Below, piece by piece: positions 48,831-64,000 of a DNA stretch of 64,000 bases. This DNA is from Verrucomicrobiota bacterium. GTDB taxonomy: Bacteria > Verrucomicrobiota > Verrucomicrobiia > Limisphaerales > J093. How positions within the stretch are numbered: the first letter of the stretch is position 1; each line of letters starts with the position of its first letter. A model generated the notes under the pieces. It made no database searches. It had not been told where the DNA came from and saw only the letters and a program-made list of their open reading frames with translations. The DNA is taken from positions 2,390 through 66,389 of the forward strand of contig JAAYVR010000026.1 of NCBI GenBank assembly GCA_012517065.1. The letters run 5' to 3'. The position numbers were made by a program, and so were the translations under genes.

Positions 48831-48917
48831 GGCTGAGCCCTCCAGCTTTGGCGGTTGCGAACCAGGCCTTGGTTTCCAGTGTTGCGGTGTACCGGAACAG
48901 ACGTTATTTCTGCAGCC

Positions 48918-49136
48918 ATGAAGTTGCCAGCCATCATCGAGCCGGATGATGATGGCGTTTTCGTTGCAGAGTGCCCCGCGCTGCCAGGCTGTGTCTCACA
49001 AGGAATAAAGCGCGAGGAGGCGATGGCCAACATGCGCGATACAATCCAGAGATACCTCGCCGGTCTCAAGAAACACGGTGAACCGATCCCGCTTGGCATT
49101 TTCATTGACCTCTCCCCCTGTCACCTGGCGTGCTGA
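48918..49136 (+). CDS. HicB-like (UPF0150) antitoxin-fold protein, orphan, antisense to the efflux operon
   Basis: MKLPAIIEPDDDGVFVAECPALPGCVSQGIKREEAMANMRDTIQRYLAGLKKHGEPIP matches the HicB N-domain pattern. Lies in the 271-nt gap between the MFP stop and the RND start; its 3' end overlaps the MFP stop region. Confidence 0.6.
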   Translation: MKLPAIIEPDDDGVFVAECPALPGCVSQGIKREEAMANMRDTIQRYLAGLKKHGEPIPLGIFIDLSPCHLAC

Positions 49137-50217
49137 TCGTTGTCACTTTCATTCCGGATGCCAGTGTCATCAGCCGCGATGGCCGCGCCACAATCACCCT
49201 GTCGCCAGCGCGCATATCGCCTTTGATCGCCACTTTGTCCAACGACCGGTCTAATACCTCGACCTTGACCGGGTTCACCACGCCGTTCTCAACCGCAAAC
49301 ACCCACGCGCCGGTCTCGCCTTCCAGCAATGCATCAGCAGGAACGACCAAGCCCTGCGCGGAACTCAATTGCACGTCCAAGCCAACAGTCGCACCGGACA
49401 CAAAACCCGGTGGCGGGTTCGTAATGTCACACTCGAAGCTCGCCAGATGGTTCTCACCCATTGCAGGAAACACGCGTGACACCGCAGCATCCAGAGAAAC
49501 GCCATCGGCCTTCACCGTGACTGCCTGACCAACGTGCAACCGGGCAAAATCTTCCGGTGGAAGCGACGCCCGAACTCGTACGCTATGCTGCGAAACAAGT
49601 TTGAGCAGTGGCTTGCCCGGCACGCCCAAGTCGCCCGGATCAGCCAGCCGCCGTGCCACCACACCGTTTGTCGGCGCAAGAAGCTGGCAGTACCCCAGCC
49701 GCGTGCGAGCCACATTCAGCCGTTGTTTGGCAGACTCGAGTTGAGCCAATGCCACGGCATCAGCGGCTTGCGAGCGATCCCACTGTTCCTGGGCTATGGC
49801 CTTCACCTCGAACAGCCGCTTGTCACGCGCAGTGATTTCATGTTGAGCCGCATACGACTTTTCCGCCGCGGCCAACGCTGCTTCCGACTCGAGGAGCACA
49901 TCCTGAAATTCGCGTTCGTCCAAACGCACCAGCAATTGCCCGGTTTTCACGTCGTCGCCTTCACGCACTTTGACCTCGACAACGCGCGCCATGACTTGTG
50001 GTGCAAGGTCGCTTTCCTCACCGCCAATCACCGTGCCCAGCACATGGCGGCTCCGCACAACCAGCCCTTCGCTGACTGATACAGTCTGAACGGCCACGGG
50101 TGTTTCTTTGACCAGCGGCGCACTTTCTTTCTGGCGGACGCGCTTGGCGCGCACCAGGATCAGCACCACTGCAATCGCAGCGATGACAACAATTCCGATG
50201 ATTCGACTTTTGTTCAC
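49102..50217 (-). CDS. RND efflux periplasmic adaptor (MFP/HlyD family)
   Basis: 371 aa. N-terminal anchor, coiled-coil hairpin, lipoyl and beta-barrel blocks. Confidence 0.9.
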   Translation of the reverse strand: MNKSRIIGIVVIAAIAVVLILVRAKRVRQKESAPLVKETPVAVQTVSVSEGLVVRSRHVLGTVIGGEESDLAPQVMARVVEVKVREGDDVKTGQLLVRLDEREFQDVLLESEAALAAAEKSYAAQHEITARDKRLFEVKAIAQEQWDRSQAADAVALAQLESAKQRLNVARTRLGYCQLLAPTNGVVARRLADPGDLGVPGKPLLKLVSQHSVRVRASLPPEDFARLHVGQAVTVKADGVSLDAAVSRVFPAMGENHLASFECDITNPPPGFVSGATVGLDVQLSSAQGLVVPADALLEGETGAWVFAVENGVVNPVKVEVLDRSLDKVAIKGDMRAGDRVIVARPSRLMTLASGMKVTTISTPGDRGRGQ

Positions 50218-51566
50218 GGCAGAATCTCCTTTTCCGCTATGGTGTTAATGCGCTCGGCGGAAATGACAAAATCGGCCCGGGCCGTTGCCAGTGCCGCGCG
50301 CGCGGCTTGTTCACGATAGCGCGCCCGCAACAGGTCCTCGATCGTGCTCGAGCCTGTGTCGTAGCGCACCTGCTCGATGCGCGCGGCTTCGGCGGCTGCA
50401 GTTACACGAGCCGCCGCGGCAGCCAGATTGGTTTGCGCGGCTTCGAGTTTCGCCACCGCATCCTGCCACGCCGCCAGGGTTTGCAATTGCGCCTGACGCA
50501 AGGCTTCCTCGGCGGCAGCCTGCCGCGCCCGAGCAGCGCTCACCCGCAGAAGGCGAGAACCACCCTCAAACAGCGGCAGAACCACCGACACGGTCGCGCC
50601 CCAGGTTTCCTCGTCGCGGTCGGTTCGCGTTCCGGTGTGCTCGAAGACGTTGGCACTGGCGATAACTCGGGGGAGCAGGTCGCTTCGGGCCACCTTCACC
50701 CCTCGTGCCGCCTGTTCGGCGGCCAGCTTGGCAGCGCGAATGGCGGAGTTGTCATCAACAGTCAATGGCAAGGCGCTGCCGCTTGTCGCTGCCATGGACG
50801 GTGCCGTCTGCGGATCCACTTCAAGCTCAATTGCCGGATCACGGCCAACAACGGACAACAACAGCGAAGCGACCTTGCGCCGGTCAGCACCCAGACTGGC
50901 GTGGCTGGCTCGCGCGGCTTCCAGTTCCTCGATCACCTTGAGCCGGTCCACCTCTGGCCGTTTGCCGATCGAAACCATCTGGTCAAGGTTTGTCCTGGTC
51001 TGGGTCAGCGCCGCGATTTGGCCGTCGAGCGCCAAAGCAGCTTGCTCGAGTGCCTGAAGCGAGGAGTAAAGCGAAACGACGTTGAAGCGGACCTGCCAAC
51101 GCGTGCCTTCGTGAAGTTCCGCCGACCTTTTGGCTTCGAGTTTGGCGATTTGAATCTGGTTGTGCAGCCGCCCGCCGAGATACAACGGGATTTCGTAGCT
51201 CAACCCGTAGTGCGCCTGGCTGCGATCCCACGGCGCGCCAAGGATACCGTTCGCCATCAACTCGCTCGACATGGGCCGAATGATCTGGTCATCGTTCAGG
51301 TAAGAATATGAACCGACGGCGTTGAGTGCGCCCCACCGCGAGCGATCAGCAGCCTTCGCTTCGCTCTCCGCAGCGCGACTCTGGTGGCCTCTGGCTTTGA
51401 GACTCGGATTCGCCTTGAGCGCTTCCTCGATCGCCTGTGCCAGTGTCAGATGCAGCGCCAACCCATTCCCTTGTGAAGAAGCTGCCTGCGCACAAACTTT
51501 GTCCGCCGCCCATGGTCCAAAGAAGACGCACAATCCCAGTGCCAATTCACAGAAACGCGCTTTCAT
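50214..51566 (-). CDS. TolC-family outer membrane efflux protein
   Basis: Two-repeat OEP architecture and signal peptide MKARFCELALGLCVFFGPWAA. Start moved to the internal ATG. Confidence 0.9.
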   Translation of the reverse strand: MKARFCELALGLCVFFGPWAADKVCAQAASSQGNGLALHLTLAQAIEEALKANPSLKARGHQSRAAESEAKAADRSRWGALNAVGSYSYLNDDQIIRPMSSELMANGILGAPWDRSQAHYGLSYEIPLYLGGRLHNQIQIAKLEAKRSAELHEGTRWQVRFNVVSLYSSLQALEQAALALDGQIAALTQTRTNLDQMVSIGKRPEVDRLKVIEELEAARASHASLGADRRKVASLLLSVVGRDPAIELEVDPQTAPSMAATSGSALPLTVDDNSAIRAAKLAAEQAARGVKVARSDLLPRVIASANVFEHTGTRTDRDEETWGATVSVVLPLFEGGSRLLRVSAARARQAAAEEALRQAQLQTLAAWQDAVAKLEAAQTNLAAAAARVTAAAEAARIEQVRYDTGSSTIEDLLRARYREQAARAALATARADFVISAERINTIAEKEILP

Positions 51567-51714
51567 TTCTTTGATCTCCCGCCATGGCTTTTTCACATTG
51601 CATAACAATTATCCCATTATTCAAAGCCGTCGGCAACGGTAAGCATATTTAGCAAAAATGCAAAACAGCTAATAATCAGGAGCCGTTACTCACAGAATAG
51701 TTACAGTTTTCTTA

Positions 51715-52040
51715 TCCGTAGCCCTCATGTTTCCCAGCCCGGCGAAGCCGGAACCAGAGTCGCCTGACGAGCAACGCCCCCCGGCTCTTGCACACCCCCT
51801 GACCTTCAGTCACGCCGGTTCGGGGAATATGCCCTGCGACTCCATCCCAAGGAAAAGCGCGCTGATACCAATGGTTTCTCACGCGCTGCCGCGGATGCAG
51901 TGGGCGTTGGTTGGCGCGAAGCGCTTGCAGTGCGGCAGCTTGCTGCCGCTTTGTTGTTATGCACAAACAACGTGCCTGGAACCAGATCGGCATGGTGTAG
52001 AAAATAACGTGTCTGTCCCCATATCGGCACCATATCGGCA
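51715..52040 (+). repeat. composite repeat, modules A-B-C'-C
   Basis: A 51715-51865, B to 51962, variant C 51963-51990, C 52000-52027 plus the short duplication caccatatcggca. Confidence 0.9.
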
Positions 52041-52055
52041 CTCCATTGGGTCCCC

Positions 52056-53399
52056 TCAAAACGAATAAACGAACTGGGCGAAGGCCCAATCGGCGCCGGT
52101 GTGACTGCCGGGAGTGGACCGCACGAAGCTGCCGGGGAAAAAGTGAGCATAGCCGAATAATAACTCCAGTTCCTTGTTCACCTGCCAGCGCGCAATGACG
52201 TCCAACTCGTGGCCGAGGTCTTGTCCGGCCTGGCCCGAGGGATCACGGCGCTCCGGTTTGCCGTTGACCCAGTACCAGGCGTCGCGCGCTTGGGCCAAAC
52301 GGAAATAGTGATAGTCCACGCTGACCTTGATGGATTTCGCCGGTTGAACGCTGAAGTTCAGCACGTAGTCCTCGAGATTCTTCCAGCTCACCACGTTCAT
52401 CCAGCCGTAGGGAATGTCCATCGCGCCAAAGATGCCGTCAAACGTGCCGGCCACGCCATCATGTGGGTCGCGGTCGCCGCTGGCGTAGTTGAACTCGACA
52501 CCGACCCGCGGCTTCCAGTCGGTCTTGAACGTGTAGCCTGCGCGCGCGATGACGCCAAAAGCCCGGATGTCGTCGCGGCCATACTCACCCAGTTGACCGG
52601 CGGCGAACAGGCCGTAATCCCAGCCCTTGCCGGCGGGCCGCTCGGTGAACAGGCCGAAGGTGTGGCGAATTTCGTCGCCCACGCCACTCTCGCCCTTGGC
52701 GCTGCCGGACCAGTCGTGTTTGACCACGTAGAAGGCGTCCAGCGTGACCGGTAGTTGTTTGACGCGGGCATAGACCGCACCCACGTGATAGGGCCAGTGA
52801 TCGAAGTTCCAGTCCTTGGGCTCGCTCAACACGCGTTGAGCGTAAAAGGCGTCCACCTTCACGGCGTCTGTGTCGTAATAAAGTTTGGCGCTGTCCCACC
52901 AGTAGTTGCCCACGTTGCCCCACTCGGCCGGGGCGAACACGCGGCGGTCGCCGTAGAGCAGGATCTGCCGGCCCAGCTTCACGCCGACCGGCGATGCACC
53001 GATGTGCTGCCACTCGAGGTAGGCCTGCCGCAGATCGAACCGGTCGAAGTACGAACTGCTACGCCCGAAGTCGGACAACGCGAGGTCGCTTAGCCAGTAG
53101 CGAGCATCTTGGAACTCAACGAACGCGTGCGCCTGATCCGTGAAGCAGTAATCGGCGCTCAAGCGGGTGCGGAGCAAGAGCACGTCATCATCCGCGCCCG
53201 TGCCGTAATGCAGGATGTTGAAATTGTCGAGATATTCGTAGCGACCGCGGACGTTGAGGCCGAGGTCCAGCCTGCCCGGACCGGCCTTGATGTCTTTGAG
53301 CGGCGAATACCAGGGCGAAGTGGCTTGGGGAGCAAGCGTGTCTGCCGCCTGCAACGAGATTGCTGCGCACACGAGCCACGGCAAGAAGTGCGCCGGCAC
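52056..53399 (-). CDS. outer-membrane beta-barrel porin (alginate-export/AlgE-like family)
   Basis: Alternating beta-strand pattern with aromatic girdles; blocks LGLNVRGRYEYLDNF and LLLRTRLSADY; terminal F. A GTG at 53399 gives the signal peptide VPAHFLPWLVCAAISLQA-AD. Start uncertain (the track ORF runs to 53609). Confidence 0.7.
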   Translation of the reverse strand: MPAHFLPWLVCAAISLQAADTLAPQATSPWYSPLKDIKAGPGRLDLGLNVRGRYEYLDNFNILHYGTGADDDVLLLRTRLSADYCFTDQAHAFVEFQDARYWLSDLALSDFGRSSSYFDRFDLRQAYLEWQHIGASPVGVKLGRQILLYGDRRVFAPAEWGNVGNYWWDSAKLYYDTDAVKVDAFYAQRVLSEPKDWNFDHWPYHVGAVYARVKQLPVTLDAFYVVKHDWSGSAKGESGVGDEIRHTFGLFTERPAGKGWDYGLFAAGQLGEYGRDDIRAFGVIARAGYTFKTDWKPRVGVEFNYASGDRDPHDGVAGTFDGIFGAMDIPYGWMNVVSWKNLEDYVLNFSVQPAKSIKVSVDYHYFRLAQARDAWYWVNGKPERRDPSGQAGQDLGHELDVIARWQVNKELELLFGYAHFFPGSFVRSTPGSHTGADWAFAQFVYSF

Positions 53400-53640
53400 C
53401 CTGCCGAGGCGAAACGGAGCGAAAACTGGAGGACAACGACAAAGGCGCTTTCGGCTGGAAAAGACGAAACGACAGGCCTCGGGCCGGAACGATGTCGCTC
53501 CCACCCGTGGGGCATTGTGGCCGCAGTCCAAGAGCATGCTGCCCGCCGCGTTGACTCGCCGGGCGCTTCCGCGACCAAACCGTCGCTTCGTTCCGGGGAT
53601 TGGTGTCATGCGCAGGCTGGCTGGACAATTCGCATGGCGG

Positions 53641-54264
53641 CTATTTCCTTTCGTAGCCGGAGCACGGAATGCACACCGGCTGGCCGTCTTTCATCCGTGC
53701 ATAGCGTTCAAAAACATATTCGCCGCACACGCTGCACTTGGTCTTGTTGAACGATCCCTTGATCGGCGTGTAGGTGAAGTCTGGTTTGTCCTCCACCTTG
53801 AATATCGCTTCGTCCGGCTGGGCGTAGGTCCACTGGATAACTTCCTGCCGCACCGGCAGCGGAATTTGCGACGGCTCGACGCCCTTTTTGCGATGAGCGA
53901 AAAACTCGAACTTGCCCAACGCGTCCACAAAGTCGGGACGGATGGAAACGCGCACCGCGCCCTTCTTCGGATGATAGAAAGTCGCCGCGAGCTTGCCGTA
54001 AAACGTCTTGGCGATGGTCAGCTTGCCGTAGGTCGCGCCGGTGGCAACCTGGATGCCGTCCATCAGGCAGGTCTGCGGATGCGCCTCGCCGAGCTCGGGA
54101 AAGACGTAAAAGCCGTGGTCTGGCTCGTGTTCAACACCCAGGCGCGCCATCGCGAGTTTCGCCATACGATAGCCCAGCGGCATGAATGGACATTGGTGGC
54201 CATGGAACTCGAACGCCCAGTCGGGCGGGATGTGATTGGTCCTTGCGGTTTGACTCGTACTCAT
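53641..54264 (-). CDS. FmdE/FwdE-family protein with C-terminal zinc ribbon
   Basis: FHGHQCPFMPLGYRM core and CSVCGEYV...CIPCSG ribbon. ATG at 54264 is preceded by AAAGGAGAG. Confidence 0.85.
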   Translation of the reverse strand: MSTSQTARTNHIPPDWAFEFHGHQCPFMPLGYRMAKLAMARLGVEHEPDHGFYVFPELGEAHPQTCLMDGIQVATGATYGKLTIAKTFYGKLAATFYHPKKGAVRVSIRPDFVDALGKFEFFAHRKKGVEPSQIPLPVRQEVIQWTYAQPDEAIFKVEDKPDFTYTPIKGSFNKTKCSVCGEYVFERYARMKDGQPVCIPCSGYERK

Positions 54265-54316
54265 AGTTCTGCTCTCCTTTCTTGTATTGTTGTTGCTTCG
54301 TGTCAGTTGACACGCC

Positions 54317-55081
54317 TTACACAATCCCCGCCAGCTTCAATGCGATTTGTGTGGCAAAAAACCACATGATGCCGGCGAAGGCTATCTTCACAAAGCCGGG
54401 GCTGGCCTTTACCGTGACGTGCGAGCCGACCGCAGAGCCCAAGACGCAGGCCACGGTCGTCACCGCCAAAAACTGCCAGTCCACATGGCCCAAAGCGAAG
54501 TGGCCGATCGTGCCCACGAAAGAGCTGACAGTTACGATCAGCGAGTTGGCGCCCGCTGCCATCTGTGCACCGTATTTCATGTAGAGCACGAGAAACGGGA
54601 AAATAATCAGCCCGCCGCCCACGCCGATGAGACTTGAAAGCACGCCCACGCCGAAGGCGAAAACTGTTACCAGCGCGATCATCTTTCCGGTGAGCTTTTT
54701 GACCTGCTGGCCGGGCTTCTCTTTGGCCGAAAAAACCATGAGCAGACCCACAACGTAAAGAAACACGGAGAAGATGCCGAGCAGGAGATTTTTGGGCGCC
54801 ATGCTGGAGAGCACGGCTCCCAAAAATGAACCCGCGACGGTCCCAGGCAAAAACACGAGGCAAAACCGGTAGTCCACCAGCTTGTTCCGCTGAAAGACAA
54901 TCGTGGCCACCAGCGAAGTCACCAGGTTTAAGAAGAGAGCGGTCGAGATGGCCGGACCGACCGCCATGCCGAGCATCACCAGCACCGGTGTGTAGAGCGA
55001 ACCGCCGCCCTTGCCGAACATCGAGAAGACCCCCGAGATCAGCAACACCACGAAGAAAGCGATGAGCAGAGTCGTGTTCAT
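54317..55081 (-). CDS. TauE/SafE-family anion exporter (DUF81)
   Basis: About 254 aa, 7-8 TM. N-terminus MNTTLLIAFFVVLLISGVFSMFGKGGGSLYTPVLV. Confidence 0.9.
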   Translation of the reverse strand: MNTTLLIAFFVVLLISGVFSMFGKGGGSLYTPVLVMLGMAVGPAISTALFLNLVTSLVATIVFQRNKLVDYRFCLVFLPGTVAGSFLGAVLSSMAPKNLLLGIFSVFLYVVGLLMVFSAKEKPGQQVKKLTGKMIALVTVFAFGVGVLSSLIGVGGGLIIFPFLVLYMKYGAQMAAGANSLIVTVSSFVGTIGHFALGHVDWQFLAVTTVACVLGSAVGSHVTVKASPGFVKIAFAGIMWFFATQIALKLAGIV

Positions 55082-55130
55082 CCTGTTCCTTGACGGGCGG
55101 GCGCTGATTCCGCGCCGGGCTGTTGCGTTC

Positions 55131-57590
55131 TCATGTCTCCAGCGGCTGCCCCTTACCAATTCCCGGCTCTGCCGGGACGGTTACAGCCAGCCGCAACAAC
55201 AACGTGACGATGGACACGAGCGCCACTAGTGTCAGGCCAAGGTCAAACCCCGTGTAAGCCAACCGGGTCACCGTGGCGAGCCAGTCGAACTTCACCAGCA
55301 TCGAAGCCCCGCACACGCCGGTCCAGAGGAGGAGCACCCACAGTGCGCCCGCGAGGGGCGCCGGTGTGGCTGCCACCGTTCCCTTGTTGCGGCGTTGCAA
55401 GGCCAGAACTAAGCCCAGCAACAGGATGCCGATGCCGATCCAGAAATGTGCCGCATCCAGCGTGAACCGCCGGGCGGTCATGTATTCCGCCAAGCCATGC
55501 GTGCGCACGACCAGCAATCCGCCCACGACCATGCCCACAAAGGCAAGCCAGGATAGCGCGACGGCCGTTTGCGGTGTCACGACGCCATGCCGCAGCGCCA
55601 CGTTTCGCAAGCCAAGGATGACCAGCAAGCCCGCCAGCAACGCCAGCAGCCCGTAGAGGATCGGCTTAAGCGTCGCCTCCCGAAAAGCGCCCAGCCGCAC
55701 GGAGTCGGTCGAATAGCCGAGGATCGTGTAATTCGGCCCCCATACAGGTCGGGCGTCGCCAGGCGAGAACGCGGCCAGCAGCACTGGCTGATCGAAAAAG
55801 CGCGAGTTAAACGAATGGCAGTCCACGCAACCACCCGAGCCGAGAGCGGCCCGTGCGGGGGCGATGTCGTGGTTGTATTTGTGGACGTTGGCGTAGGGCG
55901 AGGCTTCCCACTCGGTCTTGGCGAGCGCGCGGAATTCGGTGCCCGAACTATAAACGCGCTCATTTGAGACCCACACCACGCGTTTGCCTTCGAGGTCGTA
56001 GCCGAGCGATTTGAGATGGCGTGTGGTTGCAGCGATCAGTGCGTCAATTTCCTCGGGCCGGTTGATCTCCGGACGGCCGTCGCCGTTGTCGTCCTTGATG
56101 CGCGTCAGTTCGGCGTATTGGTTGGTGTCGGCCAGATGGGCCTTCCACATCGCCACGATATCGGGCGGCCGCGGTTGCATGAGGCCGGGTTTACCGGGCG
56201 TTTCGATACCGGGCCAGGCGGAATGGATGCGGTTGACGGGATAAATCTTGCCCTTGTAGCGGGCGAGCACGGGCCGGAAGGTCTCGGTGGGTTTGTCGTC
56301 GTAACCCATGACCTTGAGCAGGCCGTAGTGATTGCGATACGCGCCGTCCACGCCATAGAAAGTCCAGAGCTGCTTGCCGCCGGGATCAATCCACGCGTCG
56401 GTGTTAAACACATCACTGGCCTGAACCTGGATGGGCATGACCTGTTTTTCGGGTGTGTGACAGGTCTGGCAGGCGATCTTTTCCAAATGCAACGGCGGCA
56501 GCCATAGATGCGTGGCAACGGGCGCGCCAAAGCGGCCTGTTGTGTGACAACTGGTGCAATCCCGCACGGTGTTGTCGAGGTCATCACGCACGCGACCGCC
56601 GGGATCATCTCCCTTGCCGAATTGATGCACCTCTTGGCCGTGGATGCGCAGGTCATCGGCATTGCTGCCGGCGGGGTGGCAATCCACGCAGCGCAGCCCC
56701 GCGCGGAAATGAACGTCTGTGCGAGCGCGATAATCCGCGCCGCGTTTCTTCCAGCCCGGCTGCGCGTGGCAGGCCAAGCAGGTTTCATTACGCGGCTGGG
56801 CCACCACGCGGACCTTCACGTTGCCTGCGGCGTCGAAATGGCCGAGGTCGTAAGTGACCTGCGGCACTTGATTGCTGGCGACCGCGCCGGTCACCTGGCC
56901 AAAACCAGCCCCTACAGTTGCGGCCCAACGAAAGTTCAGCTTGGCGAGCTGGTCGTTGCGTTTCTTCATGTCGTATTCGGGCAGGTGGCAAAGCAAGCAA
57001 TCGGCCTCGACCACGCCGGTTTCGGTCCAGCGGGCCTTGTAGTAATCGCCGTCGAAACGGTTGTCGCCGCCCGGTGTCAGTCCATTGGCCGGGTCGCGCA
57101 TCCAGATGTCGTAGCGTTTGCCGTTCCGGTCAAACTCGAGCGGCCCGCCGCCCGGATGACAATTGCCGCAACCCGCCGTGATGAACGTGGCCGAGGTCAT
57201 GTCAATGGTGACCGCTGACGCATTTGTCTTGGGCGCGAGGTAACGGTAAAGCGGTGCGGGCGAACACCACGTGCCGCCGTAGTTGCCGGGTGACGTTACC
57301 CACTGATAACGCGCCGCCATGTCGGCGGGCACAGCTTCGCCCTTGCCCTGCATGAAATGGTAGCCCTGCGTGACCTTGTCGTAGTCGTGGCAACCGGCCG
57401 CGCCGCAGGTTTGGCGCGGCGAGTAAGGCGTGGTGGCGTTGATACCTTTAACCGGGTTGATGACGTTGCCCTGCTCGTCCTTGAGTTGATAGGGCGGACA
57501 AACCCGCACGGGCGGTTTGGGGGTGTCACCAGCCCCAAGAACAGCGCCAGCGGAGGCGAAAGTGACGAGCAAGCCCAGGCCGGATAGCAT
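55131..57590 (-). CDS. membrane-anchored octahaem c-type cytochrome (large periplasmic domain + 5 C-terminal TM helices)
   Basis: Signal peptide MLSGLGLLVTFASAGAVLG. Seven CxxCH (CGNCH, CLLCH, CLACH, CVDCH, CTSCH, CQTCH, CVDCH) plus one CGAAGCH (CX4CH). Five hydrophobic helices in the last ~190 aa. The track ORF extends to 57896 through repeat DNA. Confidence 0.85.
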   Translation of the reverse strand: MLSGLGLLVTFASAGAVLGAGDTPKPPVRVCPPYQLKDEQGNVINPVKGINATTPYSPRQTCGAAGCHDYDKVTQGYHFMQGKGEAVPADMAARYQWVTSPGNYGGTWCSPAPLYRYLAPKTNASAVTIDMTSATFITAGCGNCHPGGGPLEFDRNGKRYDIWMRDPANGLTPGGDNRFDGDYYKARWTETGVVEADCLLCHLPEYDMKKRNDQLAKLNFRWAATVGAGFGQVTGAVASNQVPQVTYDLGHFDAAGNVKVRVVAQPRNETCLACHAQPGWKKRGADYRARTDVHFRAGLRCVDCHPAGSNADDLRIHGQEVHQFGKGDDPGGRVRDDLDNTVRDCTSCHTTGRFGAPVATHLWLPPLHLEKIACQTCHTPEKQVMPIQVQASDVFNTDAWIDPGGKQLWTFYGVDGAYRNHYGLLKVMGYDDKPTETFRPVLARYKGKIYPVNRIHSAWPGIETPGKPGLMQPRPPDIVAMWKAHLADTNQYAELTRIKDDNGDGRPEINRPEEIDALIAATTRHLKSLGYDLEGKRVVWVSNERVYSSGTEFRALAKTEWEASPYANVHKYNHDIAPARAALGSGGCVDCHSFNSRFFDQPVLLAAFSPGDARPVWGPNYTILGYSTDSVRLGAFREATLKPILYGLLALLAGLLVILGLRNVALRHGVVTPQTAVALSWLAFVGMVVGGLLVVRTHGLAEYMTARRFTLDAAHFWIGIGILLLGLVLALQRRNKGTVAATPAPLAGALWVLLLWTGVCGASMLVKFDWLATVTRLAYTGFDLGLTLVALVSIVTLLLRLAVTVPAEPGIGKGQPLET

Positions 57591-57609
57591 CCGGCACCCA
57601 GCTTGTAGC

Positions 57610-57826
57610 GCAGACTTCCAGTCTGCCGTATCGCGGATTTCCAATCCGCAAAAGCTGCAAACTCTCCGAAGCGCCTCGAGTGACCACGCCCTGCCGACTA
57701 GAAGTCGGCGATACAGCAGGTTGGAAACCTTCGCTACAGTAGCGCGGGCTGGCAGCCTGCTGTGTCGCGCATTGGCAACAGCCGAGATGTTTCCGTTCTT
57801 GAGCGGTTCGCCGACCGCCCGTCGGC
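57610..57826. repeat. cluster of short 6-bp-stem / 5-nt-loop hairpins (family I)
   Basis: gcagacTTCCAgtctgc (57610-57626), gcggatTTCCAatccgc (57633-57649), gccgacTAGAAgtcggc (57693-57709) and gccgacCGCCCgtcggc (57810-57826). Confidence 0.8.
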
Positions 57827-57874
57827 CATGCGGCAGATTGTCAAACTGCGCTATGACTTCTTCAGAGTGCTCTT

Positions 57875-58180
57875 TCATGGCTTTTGTCCTTTCCATGCTG
57901 TGGGGGTTAAAGTCCTGGATGAAAAGCCGCCGCCCAGCGATTTGACCAGAGCCACAGCCGCAGCAAACCGCTGTCCGCGCAGCCTCGCCACGGCGCGGTT
58001 CTGCGCCTGGTCGCGGCCCACAATCTGGATGTCAAACGGCGCGGGCAGTCCGAAGTTGATGGTCTGGCTGACGATGTCCGTCGGCATCCGCAGCAGCACG
58101 AACGGCGTGAGCAGCAACAACACCAGCGCGGCCACCACGAAGGTGTAAGGCCGGCGAAGAGCTAGGCGGACGATCCACAT
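57875..58180 (-). pseudogene. relic of an RND efflux permease (N-terminal 35 aa fused to a mid-protein segment, then out of frame)
   Basis: MWIVRLALRRPYTFVVAALVLLLLTPFVLLRMPTDI is a typical RND N-terminus/TM1. It is followed directly by VSQTINFGLPAPFDIQIVGRDQAQNRAVA, a block normally about 500 residues further on. Total length is 101 codons. Confidence 0.6.
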
Positions 58181-58186
58181 GGCGCG

Positions 58187-58519
58187 TCACGTTTGGGTAA
58201 TGGCGATGTGAACGTCCTTGGGCAGAGCCAGTCCTGCGGCGACCTGCATGGCCTTGAACAGGCCCACCGGCACGGCGCATCCGGCACAACAGCCCGGCAA
58301 TGACTCACGCACGTTTTCCAACAGGCGACTCCCCCTGGCCGGATTAATTTCCTGAAAAGCATCCAGCGGACCGAGCGCCTGAAGGCGCGCGTTCAACTGC
58401 TGGATTTTGTCGCAGTCGGTTTCCAGCTCGAACGTCACGTATTGTGCATCGTCGCTGCGTGCCCGCACGGTCGTGCGGAATCCGCAGATTCCGGCTTGGA
58501 TTTCAGCCATGGCATTCAT
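58187..58519 (-). CDS. small Cys-rich protein of unknown function
   Basis: 110 aa. GICGF near the N-terminus, DCDKI, PGCCAGCAVPVGLFKAMQVAAGLALPKDV. Resembles an uncharacterised DUF family seen next to thiol-redox genes (from memory, unverified). Confidence 0.6.
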   Translation of the reverse strand: MNAMAEIQAGICGFRTTVRARSDDAQYVTFELETDCDKIQQLNARLQALGPLDAFQEINPARGSRLLENVRESLPGCCAGCAVPVGLFKAMQVAAGLALPKDVHIAITQT

Positions 58520-58669
58520 TGGTTGTCAAAACCGGTATTTGCTACTCGCAGTCTGTCTCCGACTCGGCGTTTGCTCCTCCGAGGCAGACCAGCGGAACTT
58601 GCGGGCGGCTGAGTCGTCTGCGTCCAGCCAATGTGGCTGGCCGCCCGGCAGCCCGGACAACCGCGCTGC

Positions 58670-59347
58670 TCAGCTCTTGCCCTCGAGGCGAAGGGCCACT
58701 TCGCCCACATGCTTGCCAAGCTGGGCGGCGGTTTTCAGGCCGAGCTCGTCGTCCGCGATGCTGTCCTTGGTCGAAAGCAGCGTCGCACCCTGAAATGCAG
58801 GCGCGTGGCCGCCGACAGGAATCATGCCGAAGCAGAGCAGGATGGCCTGCACCTGCTCGATGGCCATTTCCTGACCGCCGTTGCGGAACGCCCCTACCGT
58901 CACCACGCCGAACGGTTTGCCGGCCAGAACCATCTGCGGCTCACGCAACGGGGCGAGTCGTTCGAGGAAACATTTGGCCAGGCCGCTCAGGCTGCGGAAA
59001 TAGCAGGGCGTGCCGATGATCAGGCCGCCCAGGGCCGGGTCGCGGAACTTGGGCAGGACGGTCTTCATGTCGTCGTCGGGCGGCTGGGGCGACCATGGCG
59101 CGATGTTGAGCCCGCCCAGGTCGATCAGTTCAGTTTGAATCCGCGTGTCCACACTCTTGGCAGCGTCCAGTGCGGCTTGAACGGCTTTGGCTGTGGTCAT
59201 GCCCTTGCGCGGGCTGCACGAGACGCCGAGGATTCTGACGATACCCTGGCCGGGTGCTTCCGCCGCCCGGGCCGAGGTTGACGTTGCGGCCAACGCGGCA
59301 ACGCTGGCGCTGGCCAGGAAGTTCCGACGGTTGATTTGGTCTTTCAT
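58670..59347 (-). CDS. Tat-exported flavodoxin-fold NAD(P)H-dependent FMN reductase-like protein
   Basis: Twin-arginine signal MKDQINRRNFLASASVAALAATSTSARA, then ILGVSCSPRKGMTTAKAV (FMN_red-type P-loop). ATG at 59347 is preceded by AAAGGA. Confidence 0.8.
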   Translation of the reverse strand: MKDQINRRNFLASASVAALAATSTSARAAEAPGQGIVRILGVSCSPRKGMTTAKAVQAALDAAKSVDTRIQTELIDLGGLNIAPWSPQPPDDDMKTVLPKFRDPALGGLIIGTPCYFRSLSGLAKCFLERLAPLREPQMVLAGKPFGVVTVGAFRNGGQEMAIEQVQAILLCFGMIPVGGHAPAFQGATLLSTKDSIADDELGLKTAAQLGKHVGEVALRLEGKS

Positions 59348-59420
59348 GGGATGTCCTTTCGGTTTGAGGTTCAACTTTCACGCATCACGTTTCACGCATC
59401 AAGTTTCACTCTTCACGCCT
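59348..59420 (-). repeat. 7-nt periodic GTGAA-rich intergenic leader
   Basis: The minus strand reads GCGTGAA GAGTGAA ACTTGAT GCGTGAA ACGTGAT GCGTGAA AGTTGAA CCTCAAA CCGAAAG GACATCC before the ATG. Confidence 0.8.
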
Positions 59421-60119
59421 TCATGGCGCGCTGTAGATCAGCCACACGCCGCCGAGCATCACGAGGATGCCGCAGACGATTTTCAGCGCAGTGAGGCCCT
59501 TGGATTGCTCGTTCCATTTGAGCCAGCGCTCGACCAGTTCGGTGGATGTGCCCGCGGCCACTATCACACTGCAATGCCCCACGCCGTAGGCCAGTAGCAG
59601 CACGGCGCCGTAAAGGAAATTGGTCGCAGCCAGCTTGAACGTCACCGCCAACATCGGCGCCATGTACGCAAATGTGCACGGCCCAAGCGCGATGCCAAAG
59701 ATCAGTCCCAACATAAACGCCGCCAGCAGGCCCTTGCGCTTCATGCCCACTTGCCCCGGTCCGGACCACGGCATGGGAATCACGCCAACCAGATACAGGC
59801 CTACGGCAAAAAAGATCAGCGCCACGAAGTAGTTTCCGTAGCGGCCCACGTCGCCCATCAAACGCCCCGCCGCGGCCGTGATGATGCCGATGAATGCGAT
59901 GGTCGTCAGGATGCCCACCGCAAAGAGAGCCGATGTCCAGAACGCGCGCTTCGCCGTCACCGGGCCCTGCTCGCTGATGAAACCGACGATGAGCGGGATG
60001 CTGGCGAGATGGCAAGGGCTGAGGATGATGCTCAACACCCCCCAGACCGCCGCCGCGCTCAGCGCCAGCAACGGCGCCCCTTCCACCGCACGACTGAGGT
60101 TGGTGAAGAGTTGTTCCAT
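59421..60119 (-). CDS. CcdA/DsbD-type transmembrane thiol:disulfide electron transporter (possibly the ArsG-like branch)
   Basis: 232 aa, 6 TM. Membrane-embedded Cys motifs LSPCHLASIPL and LGPCTFAYMAP. Confidence 0.85.
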   Translation of the reverse strand: MEQLFTNLSRAVEGAPLLALSAAAVWGVLSIILSPCHLASIPLIVGFISEQGPVTAKRAFWTSALFAVGILTTIAFIGIITAAAGRLMGDVGRYGNYFVALIFFAVGLYLVGVIPMPWSGPGQVGMKRKGLLAAFMLGLIFGIALGPCTFAYMAPMLAVTFKLAATNFLYGAVLLLAYGVGHCSVIVAAGTSTELVERWLKWNEQSKGLTALKIVCGILVMLGGVWLIYSAP

Positions 60120-60122
60120 AAA

Positions 60123-60701
60123 TCATTGCTGGTCCAGACGCTGCGGAAAACCCGTTTGACCGGTGCTTATGGGCTGCTCTTGGCCGTCAATGAGGTTGCG
60201 CATTTCCGTTTCCACGTAGTTGCTTAACTTGGCGGGTTCATGCACCAGTTGCCATGTGTTAGCCAGCAGCTTCCACTCTTGCGGCTGGCCTTCCCGCAGC
60301 AGAACCAGCACCAGCGACGGGCACGGCAGGTTGTAGTCGGCCAGATAATGCTGGTTCTCCGGCAGATCATAATTGACCGATTCCCAAATCACACGGTTTG
60401 CCGCCACCTCGGCACCGAACTGCTGCTCCACCACCGCTTGGGCCAGCGCTTCGATCTGGAGGCACGTCTCGCAGCGGACCGTGCCGTGAAAGTAGTAGGC
60501 CATCAGGGTGCAAATCGCGTCATTGGTGGCCTCTGGATCGGCGTGGCGGGCAACGGTCTCCGCAGGCGGGGCAGGCACAGGAGAACAGCATGAGCCGTTG
60601 TCTTGCGTGCGACTCGCACTGCCCCGGCGCTTCATCGAAGATACTGCCCCCACCAGCACTAGTGCCCCGAGCAAGAAGACGATCTGCGTGCGGGGTTTCA
60701 T
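60123..60701 (-). CDS. membrane-anchored thioredoxin-fold protein with CxxC (resembles proteins RefSeq labels ArsF family; unverified)
   Basis: N-terminal TM (IVFLLGALVLVGAV). YYFHGTVRCETCLQIE motif followed by a thioredoxin-like pattern. Start moved to the ATG at 60701. Confidence 0.65.
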   Translation of the reverse strand: MKPRTQIVFLLGALVLVGAVSSMKRRGSASRTQDNGSCCSPVPAPPAETVARHADPEATNDAICTLMAYYFHGTVRCETCLQIEALAQAVVEQQFGAEVAANRVIWESVNYDLPENQHYLADYNLPCPSLVLVLLREGQPQEWKLLANTWQLVHEPAKLSNYVETEMRNLIDGQEQPISTGQTGFPQRLDQQ

Positions 60702-60865
60702 TTGCCTATCCGAATCTCGCCCACCAACGGCGCCGCTTCCCTCACGAACCGGGCGCATTTCTCGCGCAGTCTGCGTTCACCGGAGAACCGCGGCCCTCTT
60801 GGCGAACGGTCCGCCGCTCCGTTAGGCAGCAGATCAGGTGCGGACTTCATGGAATTTCGTTCCGG

Positions 60866-63619: not shown

Positions 63620-63880
63620 TCAGCTACTCTTCTCCCCTTCAGCCGCCTGACTCAACATTGTCTTGAGTTCGGCTACGCTCGGCACTTTGCCGACCACTTT
63701 TATTGTCCCGTTGATTGCGAGCGCCGGCGTCATCATTACGCCGAGGGCCATGATCTGCTGGAGATCCGTGACCTTGTTGAGTTCATATTGCAGACCGAGC
63801 TCTTTTGCAGCCTGTTCAGCAAACTGCGCCAGCGTCCTGCACCGCGCGCATCCAGGTCCAATCACAAGCAAACTAATCAT
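63620..63880 (-). CDS. small thioredoxin-fold protein (redox-active disulfide protein, TM0996/MTH895-like)
   Basis: 86 aa. MISLLVIGPGCARC CxxC at the N-terminus and TPALAINGTIKVVGKVPS. Confidence 0.85.
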   Translation of the reverse strand: MISLLVIGPGCARCRTLAQFAEQAAKELGLQYELNKVTDLQQIMALGVMMTPALAINGTIKVVGKVPSVAELKTMLSQAAEGEKSS

Positions 63881-63952: not shown

Positions 63953-64000
63953 CTTCACCGCACCATATACCATGCCCGTGATCGTCGCCATGACGACGGT
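63950..64000 (-). CDS. 3' end of a membrane protein gene (permease-like; partial)
   Basis: The open frame reads ...TVVMATITGMVYGAVK-TGA. Hydrophobic C-terminus. Small thioredoxin-fold genes of this type usually sit beside a DUF318/ArsP-like permease (from memory). Confidence 0.4.
   Translation of the reverse strand, partial: TVVMATITGMVYGAVK

What the first reader, a model, noticed from the sequence alone, without database searches (positions are those of the whole stretch)
52056..57590. Porin - FmdE - TauE - octahaem cytochrome: a four-gene envelope module of unknown function
The four co-directional genes have 49-, 52- and about 240-nt gaps. First is a membrane-anchored octahaem cytochrome c. 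Next is a TauE/SafE-type anion exporter (the family is linked to sulfite, sulfoacetate and similar anions). Third is an FmdE-family protein with a Zn ribbon (a cytoplasmic domain of unclear role outside methanogens). Last is an AlgE-like outer-membrane barrel. The module thus combines an outer-membrane channel, a periplasmic multihaem redox protein tied to the inner membrane, and an inner-membrane anion carrier. That layout fits a respiratory or detoxifying pathway for an oxyanion (S, Se, Te, As or N species), but it does not match any characterised system I can name. It lies directly beside the thiol-redox island.
Basis: inference. Interest (0 to 1): 0.7.

Follow-up and report, generated by a model that had tools for sequence, protein, structure and literature searches.

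The report
Arsenic-island cytochrome, porin and transporter cassettes
The four neighbouring envelope genes are real, but they are two separate gene pairs: an eight-haem membrane cytochrome with an outer-membrane anion channel, and an anion transporter with a metal-binding partner. Both pairs recur inside arsenic-resistance gene islands of many anaerobic microbes, which points to an undescribed haem-based step in arsenic handling.

Summary
Four co-directional minus-strand genes, with gaps of 49, 52 and 241 nt, encode an inner-membrane-anchored octahaem cytochrome c, a TauE/TSUP permease, an FmdE protein with a zinc ribbon, and an AlgE-like porin.

The "four-gene module" reading is only partly right. 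Comparison with 59 cytochrome loci and 85 FmdE loci shows two independent cassettes.
- Cytochrome and porin are directly adjacent in about 14 loci, including the closest relatives.
- TauE and FmdE are together in 68 of 85 FmdE loci, including archaea.
- The four-gene order occurs only in near-identical relatives (L065, L072). There, TauE-FmdE sits between cytochrome and porin.

Both cassettes lie in ArsR-controlled arsenic islands. Of 59 cytochrome loci, 45 carry ars-type genes within 10 kb (ArsR, ArsP-like permease, ArsE/F/G, ArsC, ArsM, Acr3). The neighbouring "thiol-redox island" is part of the same roughly 18-kb island in this window.

The cytochrome family is large, unnamed, and has no sequence or fold relative in the PDB, even with an AlphaFold model of pLDDT 92.6. 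Its haem density is enzyme-like.

Best reading: an arsenic-responsive periplasmic redox protein, most likely reductive, working with an anion channel. Beside it sits a transporter with a His2Cys2 metal-binding partner. The mechanism is inferred, not shown.

The parts
55131..57590 (-). Octahaem cytochrome c (819 aa): signal peptide, periplasmic domain of about 600 aa with 8 haem motifs (CX4CH at aa 62-68; CXXCH at 141, 198, 271, 301, 345, 374, 588), and a C-terminal anchor of 5 TM helices (aa 628-801)
   Evidence: AF2 model pLDDT 92.6. No PDB sequence match or fold match. 45 of 59 homologous loci carry ars-type genes.
54317..55081 (-). TauE/SafE (TSUP) family inner-membrane anion permease, 254 aa
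   Evidence: PF01925, 145 bits, E 3e-42. Adjacent to FmdE in 68 of 85 FmdE loci.
53641..54264 (-). FmdE-family protein (207 aa) with a His2Cys2 metal site (H21, H23, C25, C66) and a C-terminal treble-clef zinc ribbon (C177, C180, C198, C201)
   Evidence: PF02663, E 5e-25. PDB 2GVI, E 3.5e-53. The ligand residues are 99-100% conserved in a 157-sequence alignment. Ligand identities from PMC2954224 Table 5.
52056..53399 (-). AlgE-like (Alginate_exp) outer-membrane beta-barrel channel, 447 aa; the start at GTG 53399 is probable
   Evidence: PF13372, 236 bits. Directly adjacent to the cytochrome in about 14 related loci. Relatives at 45-49% identity sit in anion ABC-uptake clusters.
57875..58180 (-). 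Deletion scar: a 101-codon ORF that fuses the N-terminus of an RND pump to the C-terminus of a TolC-like protein
   Evidence: phmmer hits to both the RND gene and the TolC gene of L005, which lie at this position between DUF6951 and the cytochrome.
58187..58519 (-). DUF6951 small Cys-rich protein
   Evidence: PF22263, E 2e-26. Recurs in L005, L044, L058 and five FmdE loci.
58670..59374 (-). FMN_red flavoprotein with a Tat signal (predicted periplasmic)
   Evidence: PF03358, E 1e-21, plus TAT_signal. Present in 13 of 59 cytochrome loci. Immediately upstream of the cytochrome in L060.
59421..60119 (-). DsbD/CcdA-type transmembrane thiol-disulfide electron carrier
   Evidence: PF02683. Present in 16 of 59 cytochrome loci.
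60123..60758 (-). ArsF-family protein
   Evidence: NF040494, 100.4 bits against a cut-off of 60. Present in 13 of 59 loci.
60866..62194 (-). Membrane-anchored fusion protein: thioredoxin (CIPC), NosL-like domain and MerB-like domain
   Evidence: PF00085, PF05573 and PF03243. Present in 19 of 59 cytochrome loci and the commonest labelled gene immediately upstream of the cytochrome.
62250..62753 (-). CopZ-N-terminal-type putative 2Fe-2S metallochaperone
   Evidence: NF047645, 108 bits against a cut-off of 100.
62750..63526 (-). P5C-reductase-like NADP oxidoreductase
   Evidence: PF03807; TIGR00112 hit below its cut-off. Present in 11 of 59 loci.
63620..63880 (-). ArsE / MTH895-family thioredoxin-like protein (86 aa)
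   Evidence: TIGR00412, 96.5 bits against a cut-off of 62. Present in 20 of 59 cytochrome loci and 33 of 85 FmdE loci.
63953..64000 (-). C-terminal end of an ArsP_1-type permease gene that runs off the window
   Evidence: The translation ...TVVMATITGMVYGAVK* matches the C-terminus of the ArsP_1 gene of L060.
45630..51608 (-). TolC-like (50214..51608), RND adaptor (49102..50217) and RND permease (45630..48830), downstream on the same strand
   Evidence: NCBIfam. RND/MFP sets recur next to the cytochrome in about 10 of 59 loci, and in L060, L062 and L145.

Best explanation
The four genes are two independent, mobile cassettes nested in one ArsR-type arsenic or metalloid island of about 18 kb. The island covers window 45630 to beyond 64000, all on the minus strand.

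Cassette A is the cytochrome plus the porin. The cytochrome is exported, held in the inner membrane by five C-terminal helices, and carries eight c-haems in a large periplasmic domain of about 75 residues per haem, an enzyme-like density. I propose that it is induced by As(III) through ArsR. I propose further that it moves electrons between the membrane (the quinol pool, or a membrane-proximal haem) and periplasmic arsenic chemistry.

The most likely direction is reductive. The electrons would go either directly to an anionic pentavalent arsenic species (arsenate or an arsonate) or to the co-encoded periplasmic redox proteins: the Tat-exported FMN reductase, the Trx-NosL-MerB fusion and ArsF. 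The anionic species would cross the outer membrane through the AlgE-like anion channel.

Cassette B is TauE plus FmdE. It would be an inner-membrane TSUP anion or metalloid permease working with a cytoplasmic His2Cys2 and zinc-ribbon metal-binding partner that acts as a chaperone or gate. This cassette does not need the cytochrome or an outer membrane.

Shown: gene identities, cassette structure, the ars linkage, and the lack of any characterised relative. Inferred: ArsR control, electron direction, substrate, and the role of FmdE.
For: Gene calls.

Ars linkage of the cytochrome across at least 10 phyla:
- 45 of 59 cytochrome loci carry at least one ars-type gene within 10 kb: ArsR 32, ArsP_1 22, ArsE 20, Trx-NosL-MerB 19, ArsM 18, Acr3 18, ArsC 17, DsbD 16, ArsF 13, FMN_red 13.
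- Neighbour identities rest on curated cut-offs: ArsM 321 bits against 263, ArsG 288 against 200, ArsE 96.5 against 62, ArsF 100 against 60.
- Minimal ArsR-cytochrome(-porin) arrangements occur in L018, L028, L033, L035, L048 and L053. Most of these ArsR proteins carry the CVC motif.

Cytochrome-porin coupling: an 11-nt gap in L003, a 4-nt overlap in L061, a 17-nt gap in L002, and adjacency in about 14 loci.

TauE-FmdE pairing: 68 of 85 loci. The typical order is ArsR, ArsP_1, ArsE, TauE, FmdE. The pair also occurs in Bathyarchaeia.

Porin relatives sit in NitT/TauT-type and ModA-type anion ABC-uptake clusters.

The FmdE ligand residues are conserved and match the Zn site of 2GVI. The structure paper notes that FmdE genes usually sit next to metal-ion transporter genes.

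Five of nine distant relatives scanned, plus two of the 30 close homologues, carry a genuine PF01292 dihaem-b quinone-interacting domain. This ties the superfamily to the quinone pool.

Haem density is 75 aa per haem, against 28 aa per haem in the pure relay CbcL.

Clade-specific residues fit a specialised site: C31 (Cys or His in relatives, as expected of a haem axial ligand), C109, R290, H421 and H456.

Precedent: the membrane tetrahaem CymA feeds the periplasmic arsenate reductase in Shewanella (PMC2762525 abstract).
Against: There are no expression, biochemical or genetic data. All functional links come from gene neighbourhood.

- The C-terminal anchor in the window lacks the four-His signature. 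It is not significantly similar to the b561 domain (hhalign probability 0.4%; PF01292 found in only 2 of 30 close homologues). Coupling to the quinone pool is therefore unproven for this clade.
- Eight invariant non-motif His residues could make all eight haems bis-His, which would mean a relay rather than an enzyme.
- 14 of 59 cytochrome loci show no ars-type gene, though many of these contigs are short.
- ArsP_1/PF03773, ArsR and thioredoxin-like genes are not strictly arsenic-specific. The best NCBIfam hits for the permease are Cu/Zn efflux and SaoE models, both below their cut-offs.
- For the FmdE loci, hard arsenic markers are rarer: Acr3 in 14, ArsC in 4 and ArsM in 2 of 85. NifX-like, ChrA and ModA-linked contexts hint at other oxyanions such as Mo, W or Cr.
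Confidence: 0.55

Rival explanations
1. One reading: the four genes form one self-contained respiratory or detoxifying module for an oxyanion. Porin lets the substrate in, the cytochrome reduces it, TauE moves the anion, and FmdE assists.
For: The four genes are co-directional and tightly spaced. The same order recurs in L065 and L072, and partly in L066. The porin associates with both the cytochrome and TauE-FmdE (L063). A shared substrate is therefore possible.
Against: The four-gene order is confined to near-identical relatives (FmdE 92-99% identity). Other close relatives have cytochrome and porin alone. TauE-FmdE occurs without the cytochrome in 81 of 85 loci, and in archaea that have no outer membrane.
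Confidence: 0.12
2. The cytochrome is an oxidase. It would oxidise As(III) or methyl-As(III) in the periplasm, perhaps at a Cys-ligated haem as in TsdA or SoxA, and pass the electrons to the membrane. That would be an anaerobic counterpart of ArsH or Aio.
For: ArsR regulators of this kind sense As(III), and As(III) dominates in anoxic habitats (established knowledge). Position 31 alternates between Cys and His, and there is an extra clade-specific Cys109. FdnI/HydC-type b domains in relatives normally take electrons from periplasmic oxidation into quinone (plus established knowledge). ArsM and ArsP-like genes are in the islands.
Against: The carriers are mostly anaerobes that typically use menaquinone. 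As(III) oxidation to menaquinone is endergonic (established redox potentials; inference). The b domain is absent in this clade. There is no coordinate-level evidence that C31 ligates a haem.
Confidence: 0.15
3. The pair acts on sulfur chemistry rather than arsenic. The substrate would be sulfite, thiosulfate, polysulfide or thioarsenate. The ArsR-family regulator would sense persulfide, and TauE would export sulfite.
For: TauE is annotated as a sulfite exporter. CoA-disulfide reductase-rhodanese genes occur in 5 cytochrome loci. DsrE, TusA, OsmC and AhpD occur in FmdE loci. A possible His/Cys haem is typical of sulfur-oxidising cytochromes (plus established knowledge).
Against: ArsC, ArsM and Acr3 are each in about 30% of cytochrome loci. 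The adjacent ArsR proteins carry the CVC As(III)-type motif.
Confidence: 0.1
4. The cytochrome and porin form a porin-cytochrome conduit for extracellular electron transfer, as in MtrAB or Pcc. Alternatively, the cytochrome is a generic respiratory quinol dehydrogenase whose ars neighbours are coincidental.
For: Porin and multihaem cytochrome are adjacent. There are weak Pfam hits to MtrC/MtrF domains II/IV. Relatives have a CbcL-like bc architecture.
Against: The porin is an Alginate_exp-type small channel of about 440 aa, and its relatives serve anion uptake systems. The cytochrome is fixed in the inner membrane by five helices. Ars linkage in 45 of 59 loci across many phyla is far above what chance placement would give. 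Haem density is unlike that of electron wires.
Confidence: 0.06

Closest known systems
CbcL (GSU0274) and related bc-type inner-membrane quinol oxidoreductases of Geobacter
   Same: A periplasmic multihaem c domain is followed by a C-terminal membrane domain. Five of nine distant relatives of the window protein scanned carry the same PF01292 (HydC/FdnI-type) dihaem-b domain, as do two of the 30 close homologues aligned.
   Different: CbcL packs 9 haems into 250 residues and has 6 TM helices with 2 b-haems (PMC9129911). The window protein has 8 haems in about 600 residues and 5 TM helices. Only one conserved His remains in the anchor, and there is no significant similarity to the b domain. CbcL is not ars-linked.
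CymA feeding ArrAB (arsenate respiration, Shewanella sp. ANA-3)
   Same: A membrane-anchored multihaem c cytochrome supplies quinol electrons to periplasmic arsenic reduction within an arsenic-regulated context (PMC2762525 abstract).
   Different: CymA is a small tetrahaem NapC/NirT protein with an N-terminal anchor. The catalytic partner there is a molybdoenzyme. No Arr, Aio or Arx gene was seen in the loci examined here.
Octahaem enzymes OTR, MccA and HAO/ONR, and pentahaem NrfA
   Same: Periplasmic multihaem proteins with enzyme-like haem density that reduce or oxidise small (oxy)anions. One haem motif is non-standard (CX4CH here).
   Different: A family profile finds no PDB match at E<=1. 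A pLDDT-92.6 model finds no fold match (best E about 1, TM below 0.13). NCBIfam octaheme_Shew scores 31.7 bits against a cut-off of 375. There is no CXXCK or CX15CH motif.
ArsEFG / ArsR-ArsP-type organoarsenical resistance clusters
   Same: ArsE-family thioredoxin-like, ArsF-family and ArsP_1-type permease genes are in the window. ArsG-family genes are in related loci.
   Different: As far as I know and could find, the described clusters contain no cytochrome, porin, TauE or FmdE. The window has a DsbD_TM gene in place of a recognised ArsG.
FmdE family structures (TA1109/2GVI, DSY1837/2GLZ)
   Same: About 50% identical to 2GVI over 191 residues. The same His2Cys2 tetrahedral metal site and treble-clef zinc finger are present. 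The family is noted to sit next to metal-ion transporter genes.
   Different: It is not in an fmd/fwd operon. Here it is partnered specifically with a TauE/TSUP permease inside ArsR-type islands.
AlgE alginate export porin
   Same: The same Pfam family (PF13372, 236 bits), an outer-membrane barrel whose founding member AlgE conducts an anionic polymer.
   Different: No alginate biosynthesis genes are nearby. The partners are a cytochrome, TauE-FmdE, or anion ABC importers. phmmer finds no PDB match at E<=0.1.

Membership tests
OTR / MccA / HAO-ONR / NrfA multihaem enzymes | Detectable sequence homology to solved members | tested here: not met
   Family profile against all PDB sequences: 0 hits at E<=1. 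NCBIfam TIGR04315 31.7 bits against 375; NrfB/NrfH models far below their cut-offs.
OTR / MccA / HAO-ONR / NrfA multihaem enzymes | Shared fold | tested here: not met
   Foldseek of the AF2 model (pLDDT 92.6, pTM 0.88) against the PDB: best E 0.96, TM below 0.13. Caveat: the model has no haems, and Foldseek may be less sensitive on proteins that are poor in secondary structure.
OTR / MccA / HAO-ONR / NrfA multihaem enzymes | Signature active-site haem motif (CXXCK in NrfA, CX15CH in MccA) | tested here: not met
   The only motifs are seven CXXCH and one CX4CH.
CbcL-type bc quinol oxidoreductase | N-terminal periplasmic multihaem c domain joined to a C-terminal membrane domain | tested here: met
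CbcL-type bc quinol oxidoreductase | HydC/FdnI (PF01292) dihaem-b domain with four His ligands | tested here: not met
   PF01292 is absent from the window protein and from 28 of 30 close homologues. One conserved His (H715) remains. hhalign against the b domain gives probability 0.4%. The feature is met in five of nine distant relatives scanned.
CbcL-type bc quinol oxidoreductase | Wire-like haem density (about 28 aa per haem) | tested here: not met
   About 75 aa per haem here, against 28 in CbcL.
Porin-cytochrome EET conduit (MtrAB / Pcc) | Large MtrB/Pcc-type porin that sheathes a periplasmic multihaem cytochrome | tested here: not met
   The porin is Alginate_exp (PF13372, 447 aa). The cytochrome is anchored in the inner membrane by 5 TM helices.
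TauE/SafE (TSUP) permeases | Pfam PF01925 above the gathering score | tested here: met
   145.3 bits against 32.6.
TauE/SafE (TSUP) permeases | Sulfite or sulfonate export activity | not testable with these tools
   Only context is available. The partner is FmdE inside ArsR-type islands.
FmdE (PF02663) | Pfam match, conserved His2Cys2 site and treble-clef zinc finger | tested here: met
   88.5 bits against 22.9. 2GVI E 3.5e-53. H21, H23, C25 and C66, and C177, C180, C198 and C201, are 99-100% conserved in a 157-sequence alignment and map to Table 5 of PMC2954224.
FmdE (PF02663) | Location in a formylmethanofuran dehydrogenase operon | tested here: not met
   No fmd/fwd genes were noted in the window or in the gene maps of the 85 FmdE loci.
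AlgE / Alginate_exp porins | Pfam PF13372 above the gathering score | tested here: met
   236.1 bits against 25.2.
AlgE / Alginate_exp porins | Association with alginate biosynthesis genes | tested here: not met
   No alginate biosynthesis genes were noted in the window or the related loci inspected.
ArsEFG-type arsenical system | ArsE, ArsF and ArsG family genes together | tested here: inconclusive
   ArsE (96.5 against 62) and ArsF (100.4 against 60) are met in the window. ArsG is not recognised in the window, where there is a DsbD_TM gene instead. A bona fide ArsG (288 against 200) occurs in 8 related loci.
Arsenic (ars) island | ArsR-family regulator plus arsenic-specific genes (ArsC, Acr3 or ArsB, ArsM) in the same cluster | tested here: inconclusive
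   Met in related loci, for example L001, L008, L013, L016, L049 and L072. Within the window only ArsE, ArsF and the ArsP_1 end are visible. The island runs off the window at 64000.

The most novel reading that the evidence does not exclude
The ars-linked octahaem cytochrome is itself a molybdenum-free, haem-based arsenic oxidoreductase. It would be a quinol-driven periplasmic reductase for arsenate or methyl/aryl-arsonates, possibly using a Cys-ligated haem and the clade-specific Cys and Arg residues. The AlgE-like anion channel would supply its substrate. Such an enzyme could explain arsenate respiration, or organoarsenical reduction, in anaerobes that lack Arr.
Probability: 0.15. Interest if true: 0.9.

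Novelty: new variant of a known kind. Interest (0 to 1): 0.66.

Why it matters
All known respiratory arsenic redox enzymes (Arr, Aio, Arx) are molybdoenzymes. No gene is known for anaerobic reduction of methylated or aromatic As(V) species. Some arsenate respirers lack arr, for example Anaeromyxobacter PSR-1 (PMC4432346) and Melioribacter (PMC5492636).

The family described here is large and spans many phyla. It is structurally unassigned, and it sits in ArsR-type islands, often with its own outer-membrane anion channel. That makes it a concrete, testable candidate for a missing step in anoxic arsenic cycling in sediments, paddy soils and aquifers.

The work also shows that the TauE-FmdE pair is a conserved two-gene unit in bacteria and archaea. 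This gives the long-unexplained FmdE family outside methanogens a specific partner and a specific context.

Tried and rejected
- The first AlphaFold run used 30 close homologues and gave a poor model (pLDDT 58.7). Its fold search was meaningless.
- Adding distant relatives from the representative search gave a confident model. It still has no PDB fold match.
- I tested the idea that the C-terminal anchor is a degenerate cytochrome b561 domain. A MAFFT alignment suggests two matching motifs, but hhalign does not support homology. I therefore do not claim b-haems.
- Literature searches found no description of this cytochrome family or of the TauE-FmdE pair. The queries covered multihaem cytochromes in ars operons, ArsEFG, MerB/ArsP/cytochrome, FmdE with TauE, TauE with arsenic, and arr-less arsenate respiration.
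- The Melioribacter paper attributes arsenate respiration to Ttr- and Psr-like molybdoenzymes, not to a cytochrome.
- Promoter, terminator and repeat scans of 51500..58700 gave nothing informative.
- A suspected repeat element upstream of the cytochrome start occurs only once in the window.
- A look-up of the window's own contig to read beyond position 64000 found no record.
- An early labelling run used an out-of-frame porin query and undercounted porins. The porin counts are taken instead.

Full report
**1.

Region 52056..57590 carries four minus-strand genes.
- The cytochrome ORF is open to 57896. Homologues align from the ATG at 57590 (MLSGLG...), which gives 819 aa.
- TauE starts at 55081, FmdE at 54264, and the porin most probably at GTG 53399. 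A 98%-identical database protein (P0390) is also 447 aa.

Pfam confirms three of the four genes: TauE (145 bits, E 3e-42), FmdE (E 5e-25) with a zinc ribbon, and Alginate_exp (236 bits, E 8e-70).

The cytochrome has seven CXXCH motifs and one CX4CH motif. All eight are invariant in 119 homologues. It also has a signal-like N-terminus and five C-terminal helices.

**2. The surroundings: one arsenic-type island, not a module beside an island.**

Upstream on the same strand, from the window end inwards, lie these genes:
- the end of an ArsP_1 permease gene that runs off the window
- an ArsE/MTH895-family thioredoxin-like gene (96.5 bits against a cut-off of 62)
- a P5C-reductase-like gene
- a CopZ-N-type 2Fe-2S metallochaperone
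- a membrane-anchored Trx-NosL-MerB fusion
- an ArsF-family gene (100.4 against 60)
- a DsbD_TM gene
- a Tat-signal FMN reductase
- a DUF6951 gene

Downstream lie TolC, an RND adaptor and an RND pump.

Between DUF6951 and the cytochrome is a 101-codon ORF. It fuses an RND N-terminus to a TolC C-terminus. In L005 and L006 an intact RND-MFP-TolC set occupies that position, so this ORF is a deletion scar.

**3. What is conserved with the cytochrome.**

The family is large. The word-indexed search found 1380 hits at E<=1e-5, and the top 120 are at least 56% identical. Their only names are "multiheme c-type cytochrome" or "hypothetical".

A scan of one genome per species returned 55 loci. They come from Verrucomicrobiota, Planctomycetota, Latescibacterota, Sumerlaeota, Calditrichota, Ignavibacteria, Bacteroidota, Desulfobacterota, Omnitrophota, Anaerolineales, Acidobacteriota and others.

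I clustered the ORFs of these loci and labelled them against reference proteins. Of 59 cytochrome loci, 45 hold at least one ars-type gene within 10 kb.

| Gene | Loci (of 59) |
|---|---|
| ArsR | 32 |
| ArsP_1 | 22 |
| ArsE | 20 |
| Trx-NosL-MerB | 19 |
| ArsM | 18 |
| Acr3 | 18 |
| ArsC | 17 |
| DsbD | 16 |
| ArsF | 13 |
| FMN_red | 13 |
| P5CR-like | 11 |
| DGC | 11 |
| ArsG | 8 |

Curated models confirm the neighbour identities: ArsM 321 bits against 263, ArsG 288 against 200, and a thioredoxin-type ArsC hit.

Several loci reduce to ArsR-cytochrome, with or without the porin: L018, L028, L033, L035, L048 and L053. Most of the adjacent ArsR proteins carry a CVC motif like the As(III) site of classical ArsR, plus a C-terminal Cys pair.

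A typical verrucomicrobial order is ArsR, ArsP_1, ArsE, P5CR-like, Trx-NosL-MerB, cytochrome, porin, ArsF, DsbD, FMN_red (L011, L012, L049).

**4. The four genes are two cassettes.**

The porin is found in about 17 of the 59 loci. It is directly adjacent to the cytochrome in about 14 loci, often with signs of translational coupling: an 11-nt gap in L003, a 17-nt gap in L002 and a 4-nt overlap in L061.

The closest cytochrome relatives (82-83% identity) have cytochrome then porin with nothing between them (L060, L061).

FmdE appears in only 2 of the first 60 loci, and TauE only in the window.

FmdE homologues are abundant and strikingly conserved: 72-89% identity across Bathyarchaeia, Thorarchaeota, Saccharicenans and Burkholderiales. 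In 85 FmdE loci, TauE is present in 68, and most of the remaining loci are cut by contig ends.

The usual order is ArsR, ArsP_1, ArsE, TauE, FmdE, sometimes a second FmdE, then a NifX-like gene. Frequent further neighbours are DGC, GcvH-like, OsmC, AhpD-like, SBF/Acr3 and ChrA genes.

Only four of the 85 loci hold the cytochrome. The window's order (cytochrome, TauE, FmdE, porin) recurs only in near-identical relatives:
- L065, FmdE 99% identical
- L072, 92% identical: Acr3, ArsR, ArsP_1, P5CR, Trx-NosL-MerB, cytochrome, TauE, FmdE, porin, ArsF, DsbD
- L066, 94% identical, is compatible with this order

So in this lineage a TauE-FmdE cassette was inserted between cytochrome and porin.

The porin can also follow FmdE-TauE without a cytochrome nearby (L063). 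It may therefore serve both cassettes.

**5. The cytochrome itself.**

No curated family claims it. Pfam hits are generic haem-motif families. NCBIfam scores are far below their cut-offs, for example octaheme_Shew at 31.7 against 375. A family profile finds nothing in the PDB at E<=1.

The exhaustive representative search found 943 clusters at E<=1e-3. Its distant relatives (25-45% identical) share the haem-rich N-terminal half.

Adding those relatives to the alignment raised the AlphaFold model from pLDDT 58.7 to 92.6, with pTM 0.88. Foldseek still finds no PDB match: the best E is about 1 and TM is below 0.13. I could therefore place it in none of OTR, MccA, HAO/ONR, NrfA or the MtrC-type families.

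Five of nine distant relatives scanned end in a true PF01292 (HydC/FdnI-type) cytochrome-b domain, as do two of the 30 close homologues. The superfamily thus has the bc architecture of CbcL.

The window clade has a different or degenerate five-helix anchor. It keeps one conserved His (H715) and shows no significant similarity to the b domain.

Haem density is about 75 residues per haem, against 28 in CbcL. The periplasmic part includes an alpha/beta insertion between haems 7 and 8.

Six non-motif His residues are conserved across the superfamily: 78, 294, 322, 361, 368 and 574. H421 and H456 are specific to the ars-linked clade.

Other clade-specific residues are C109 (in a WCSP motif), M164, W280 and R290. 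Position 31 is Cys in the clade and Cys or His in relatives, a pattern expected of a haem axial ligand. I could not check spatial proximity because model coordinates are not exposed.

**6. FmdE, TauE and the porin.**

FmdE is about 50% identical to TA1109 (PDB 2GVI, E 3.5e-53). It keeps that protein's tetrahedral His2Cys2 site (H21, H23, C25, C66) and its treble-clef zinc finger. These residues are 99-100% conserved in a 157-sequence alignment (ligands from PMC2954224 Table 5).

The same paper noted that FmdE genes mostly sit next to metal-ion transporter genes.

Porin relatives at 45-49% identity lie in a NitT/TauT-type ABC uptake operon (L146). Another lies in a ModA-like SBP, TauE and ABC cluster (L147). 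This fits a small-anion channel rather than a polymer exporter.

**7. Most likely mechanism (inferred).**

The island is an As(III)-responsive set of envelope functions.

Cassette A would place a redox protein in the periplasm, tethered to the inner membrane, together with a dedicated outer-membrane anion channel. I favour electron flow from the membrane outward, for four reasons:
- The carriers are mostly anaerobes.
- Menaquinol-to-As(V) transfer is exergonic, whereas As(III)-to-menaquinone is not (established potentials).
- Relatives carry quinone-interacting b domains.
- CymA-ArrAB is a precedent.

The acceptor would be an anionic As(V) species, or the co-encoded periplasmic redox proteins. 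The Tat-FMN reductase lies 9 nt upstream of the cytochrome in L060.

Cassette B would be a TSUP permease with a His2Cys2 metal-binding partner acting as chaperone or gate. By analogy it resembles ArsD-ArsA, but there is no homology.

None of these steps has been tested.

**8. Rivals.**

In order of my confidence, the rivals are:
- an As(III) or MAs(III) oxidase
- sulfur or thioarsenate chemistry
- an EET conduit or a generic quinol dehydrogenase

They are weighed in the Rival explanations section. The main weakness of every reading is that the evidence is gene neighbourhood only. The arsenic specificity of cassette B is weaker than that of cassette A.

**9. Novelty and verdict.**

The library searches found no description of this cytochrome family in ars islands or of the TauE-FmdE pair.

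I rate the finding a new variant of a known kind: an arsenic island with an undescribed haem and porin accessory and a transporter-FmdE accessory. There is a 15% chance that the cytochrome is a categorically new, molybdenum-free arsenic oxidoreductase.

Noticed in passing
window 57875-58180 (-): A 101-codon ORF has an N-terminal half that matches the start of an RND pump and a C-terminal half that matches the end of a TolC-like protein. In L005 and L006 an intact RND-MFP-TolC operon sits at this place, so this is a deletion scar.
   Followed up: partly
window 60866-62194 (-): A membrane-anchored fusion of thioredoxin (CIPC), a NosL-like domain and a MerB-like domain. It occurs in 19 of 59 cytochrome loci, usually just upstream of the cytochrome. 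It is a candidate periplasmic, oxygen-independent organo-metal(loid) lyase or carrier. The catalytic Cys/Asp residues were not checked.
   Followed up: partly
window 58670-59374 (-): An FMN_red-family flavoprotein carries a twin-arginine signal, so it is predicted to be periplasmic, where NAD(P)H is not available. It would need a periplasmic electron donor such as the cytochrome. It is not an ArsH by NCBIfam.
   Followed up: partly
window 63953-64000 (-): The last 16 codons of an ArsP_1-type permease gene. The island continues beyond the window end, presumably with ArsR and perhaps Acr3, as in L072.
   Followed up: partly
window 53641-54264 (-) and P0121-P0240: This FmdE subfamily is 72-89% identical between Verrucomicrobia, Bathyarchaeia, Thorarchaeota, Saccharicenans and Burkholderiales. 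That is unusually high for such distant hosts and suggests recent horizontal spread of the TauE-FmdE cassette, very strong constraint, or both.
   Followed up: partly
window 48855-49136 (+): A small plus-strand ORF in the gap between the RND adaptor and the RND pump genes. Its sequence (…DDDGVFVAECPALPGCVSQG…) looks like a HicB-type antitoxin. Similar ORFs cluster with it in L008 and L013. No family search was run.
   Followed up: no
window 57591-57896 (-) and L005 9617-10000: The open frame upstream of the supported cytochrome start encodes …VSNLLYRRLLVGRAW…GLEIRDTADWKSALQ…. A very similar stretch precedes the L005 cytochrome, and related peptides recur in other L005 intergenic ORFs. This suggests a repeat element, but only one copy is found in this window.
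   Followed up: partly
window 62250-62753 (-) and 62750-63526 (-): A CopZ-N-terminal-type putative 2Fe-2S metallochaperone and a P5C-reductase-like NADP oxidoreductase overlap by 4 nt inside the island. The P5CR-like gene recurs in 11 of 59 cytochrome loci. Its role is unknown.
   Followed up: no
L063, L076-L141 (FmdE loci): A small NifX/NafY-like (Nitro_FeMo-Co) gene follows TauE-FmdE in 34 of 85 loci. ChrA-type transporters occur in 13. ModA-like binding proteins flank a porin-TauE pair in L147. This hints that cassette B may handle group-6 oxyanions (Mo, W, Cr) rather than, or as well as, arsenic.
   Followed up: partly
cytochrome residue 31 (window about 57498-57500, -): The invariant Cys31 of the ars-linked clade aligns with either Cys or His in distant relatives that carry a b561 domain. 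This pattern is expected for a haem axial ligand, so one haem may be His/Cys-ligated.
   Followed up: partly
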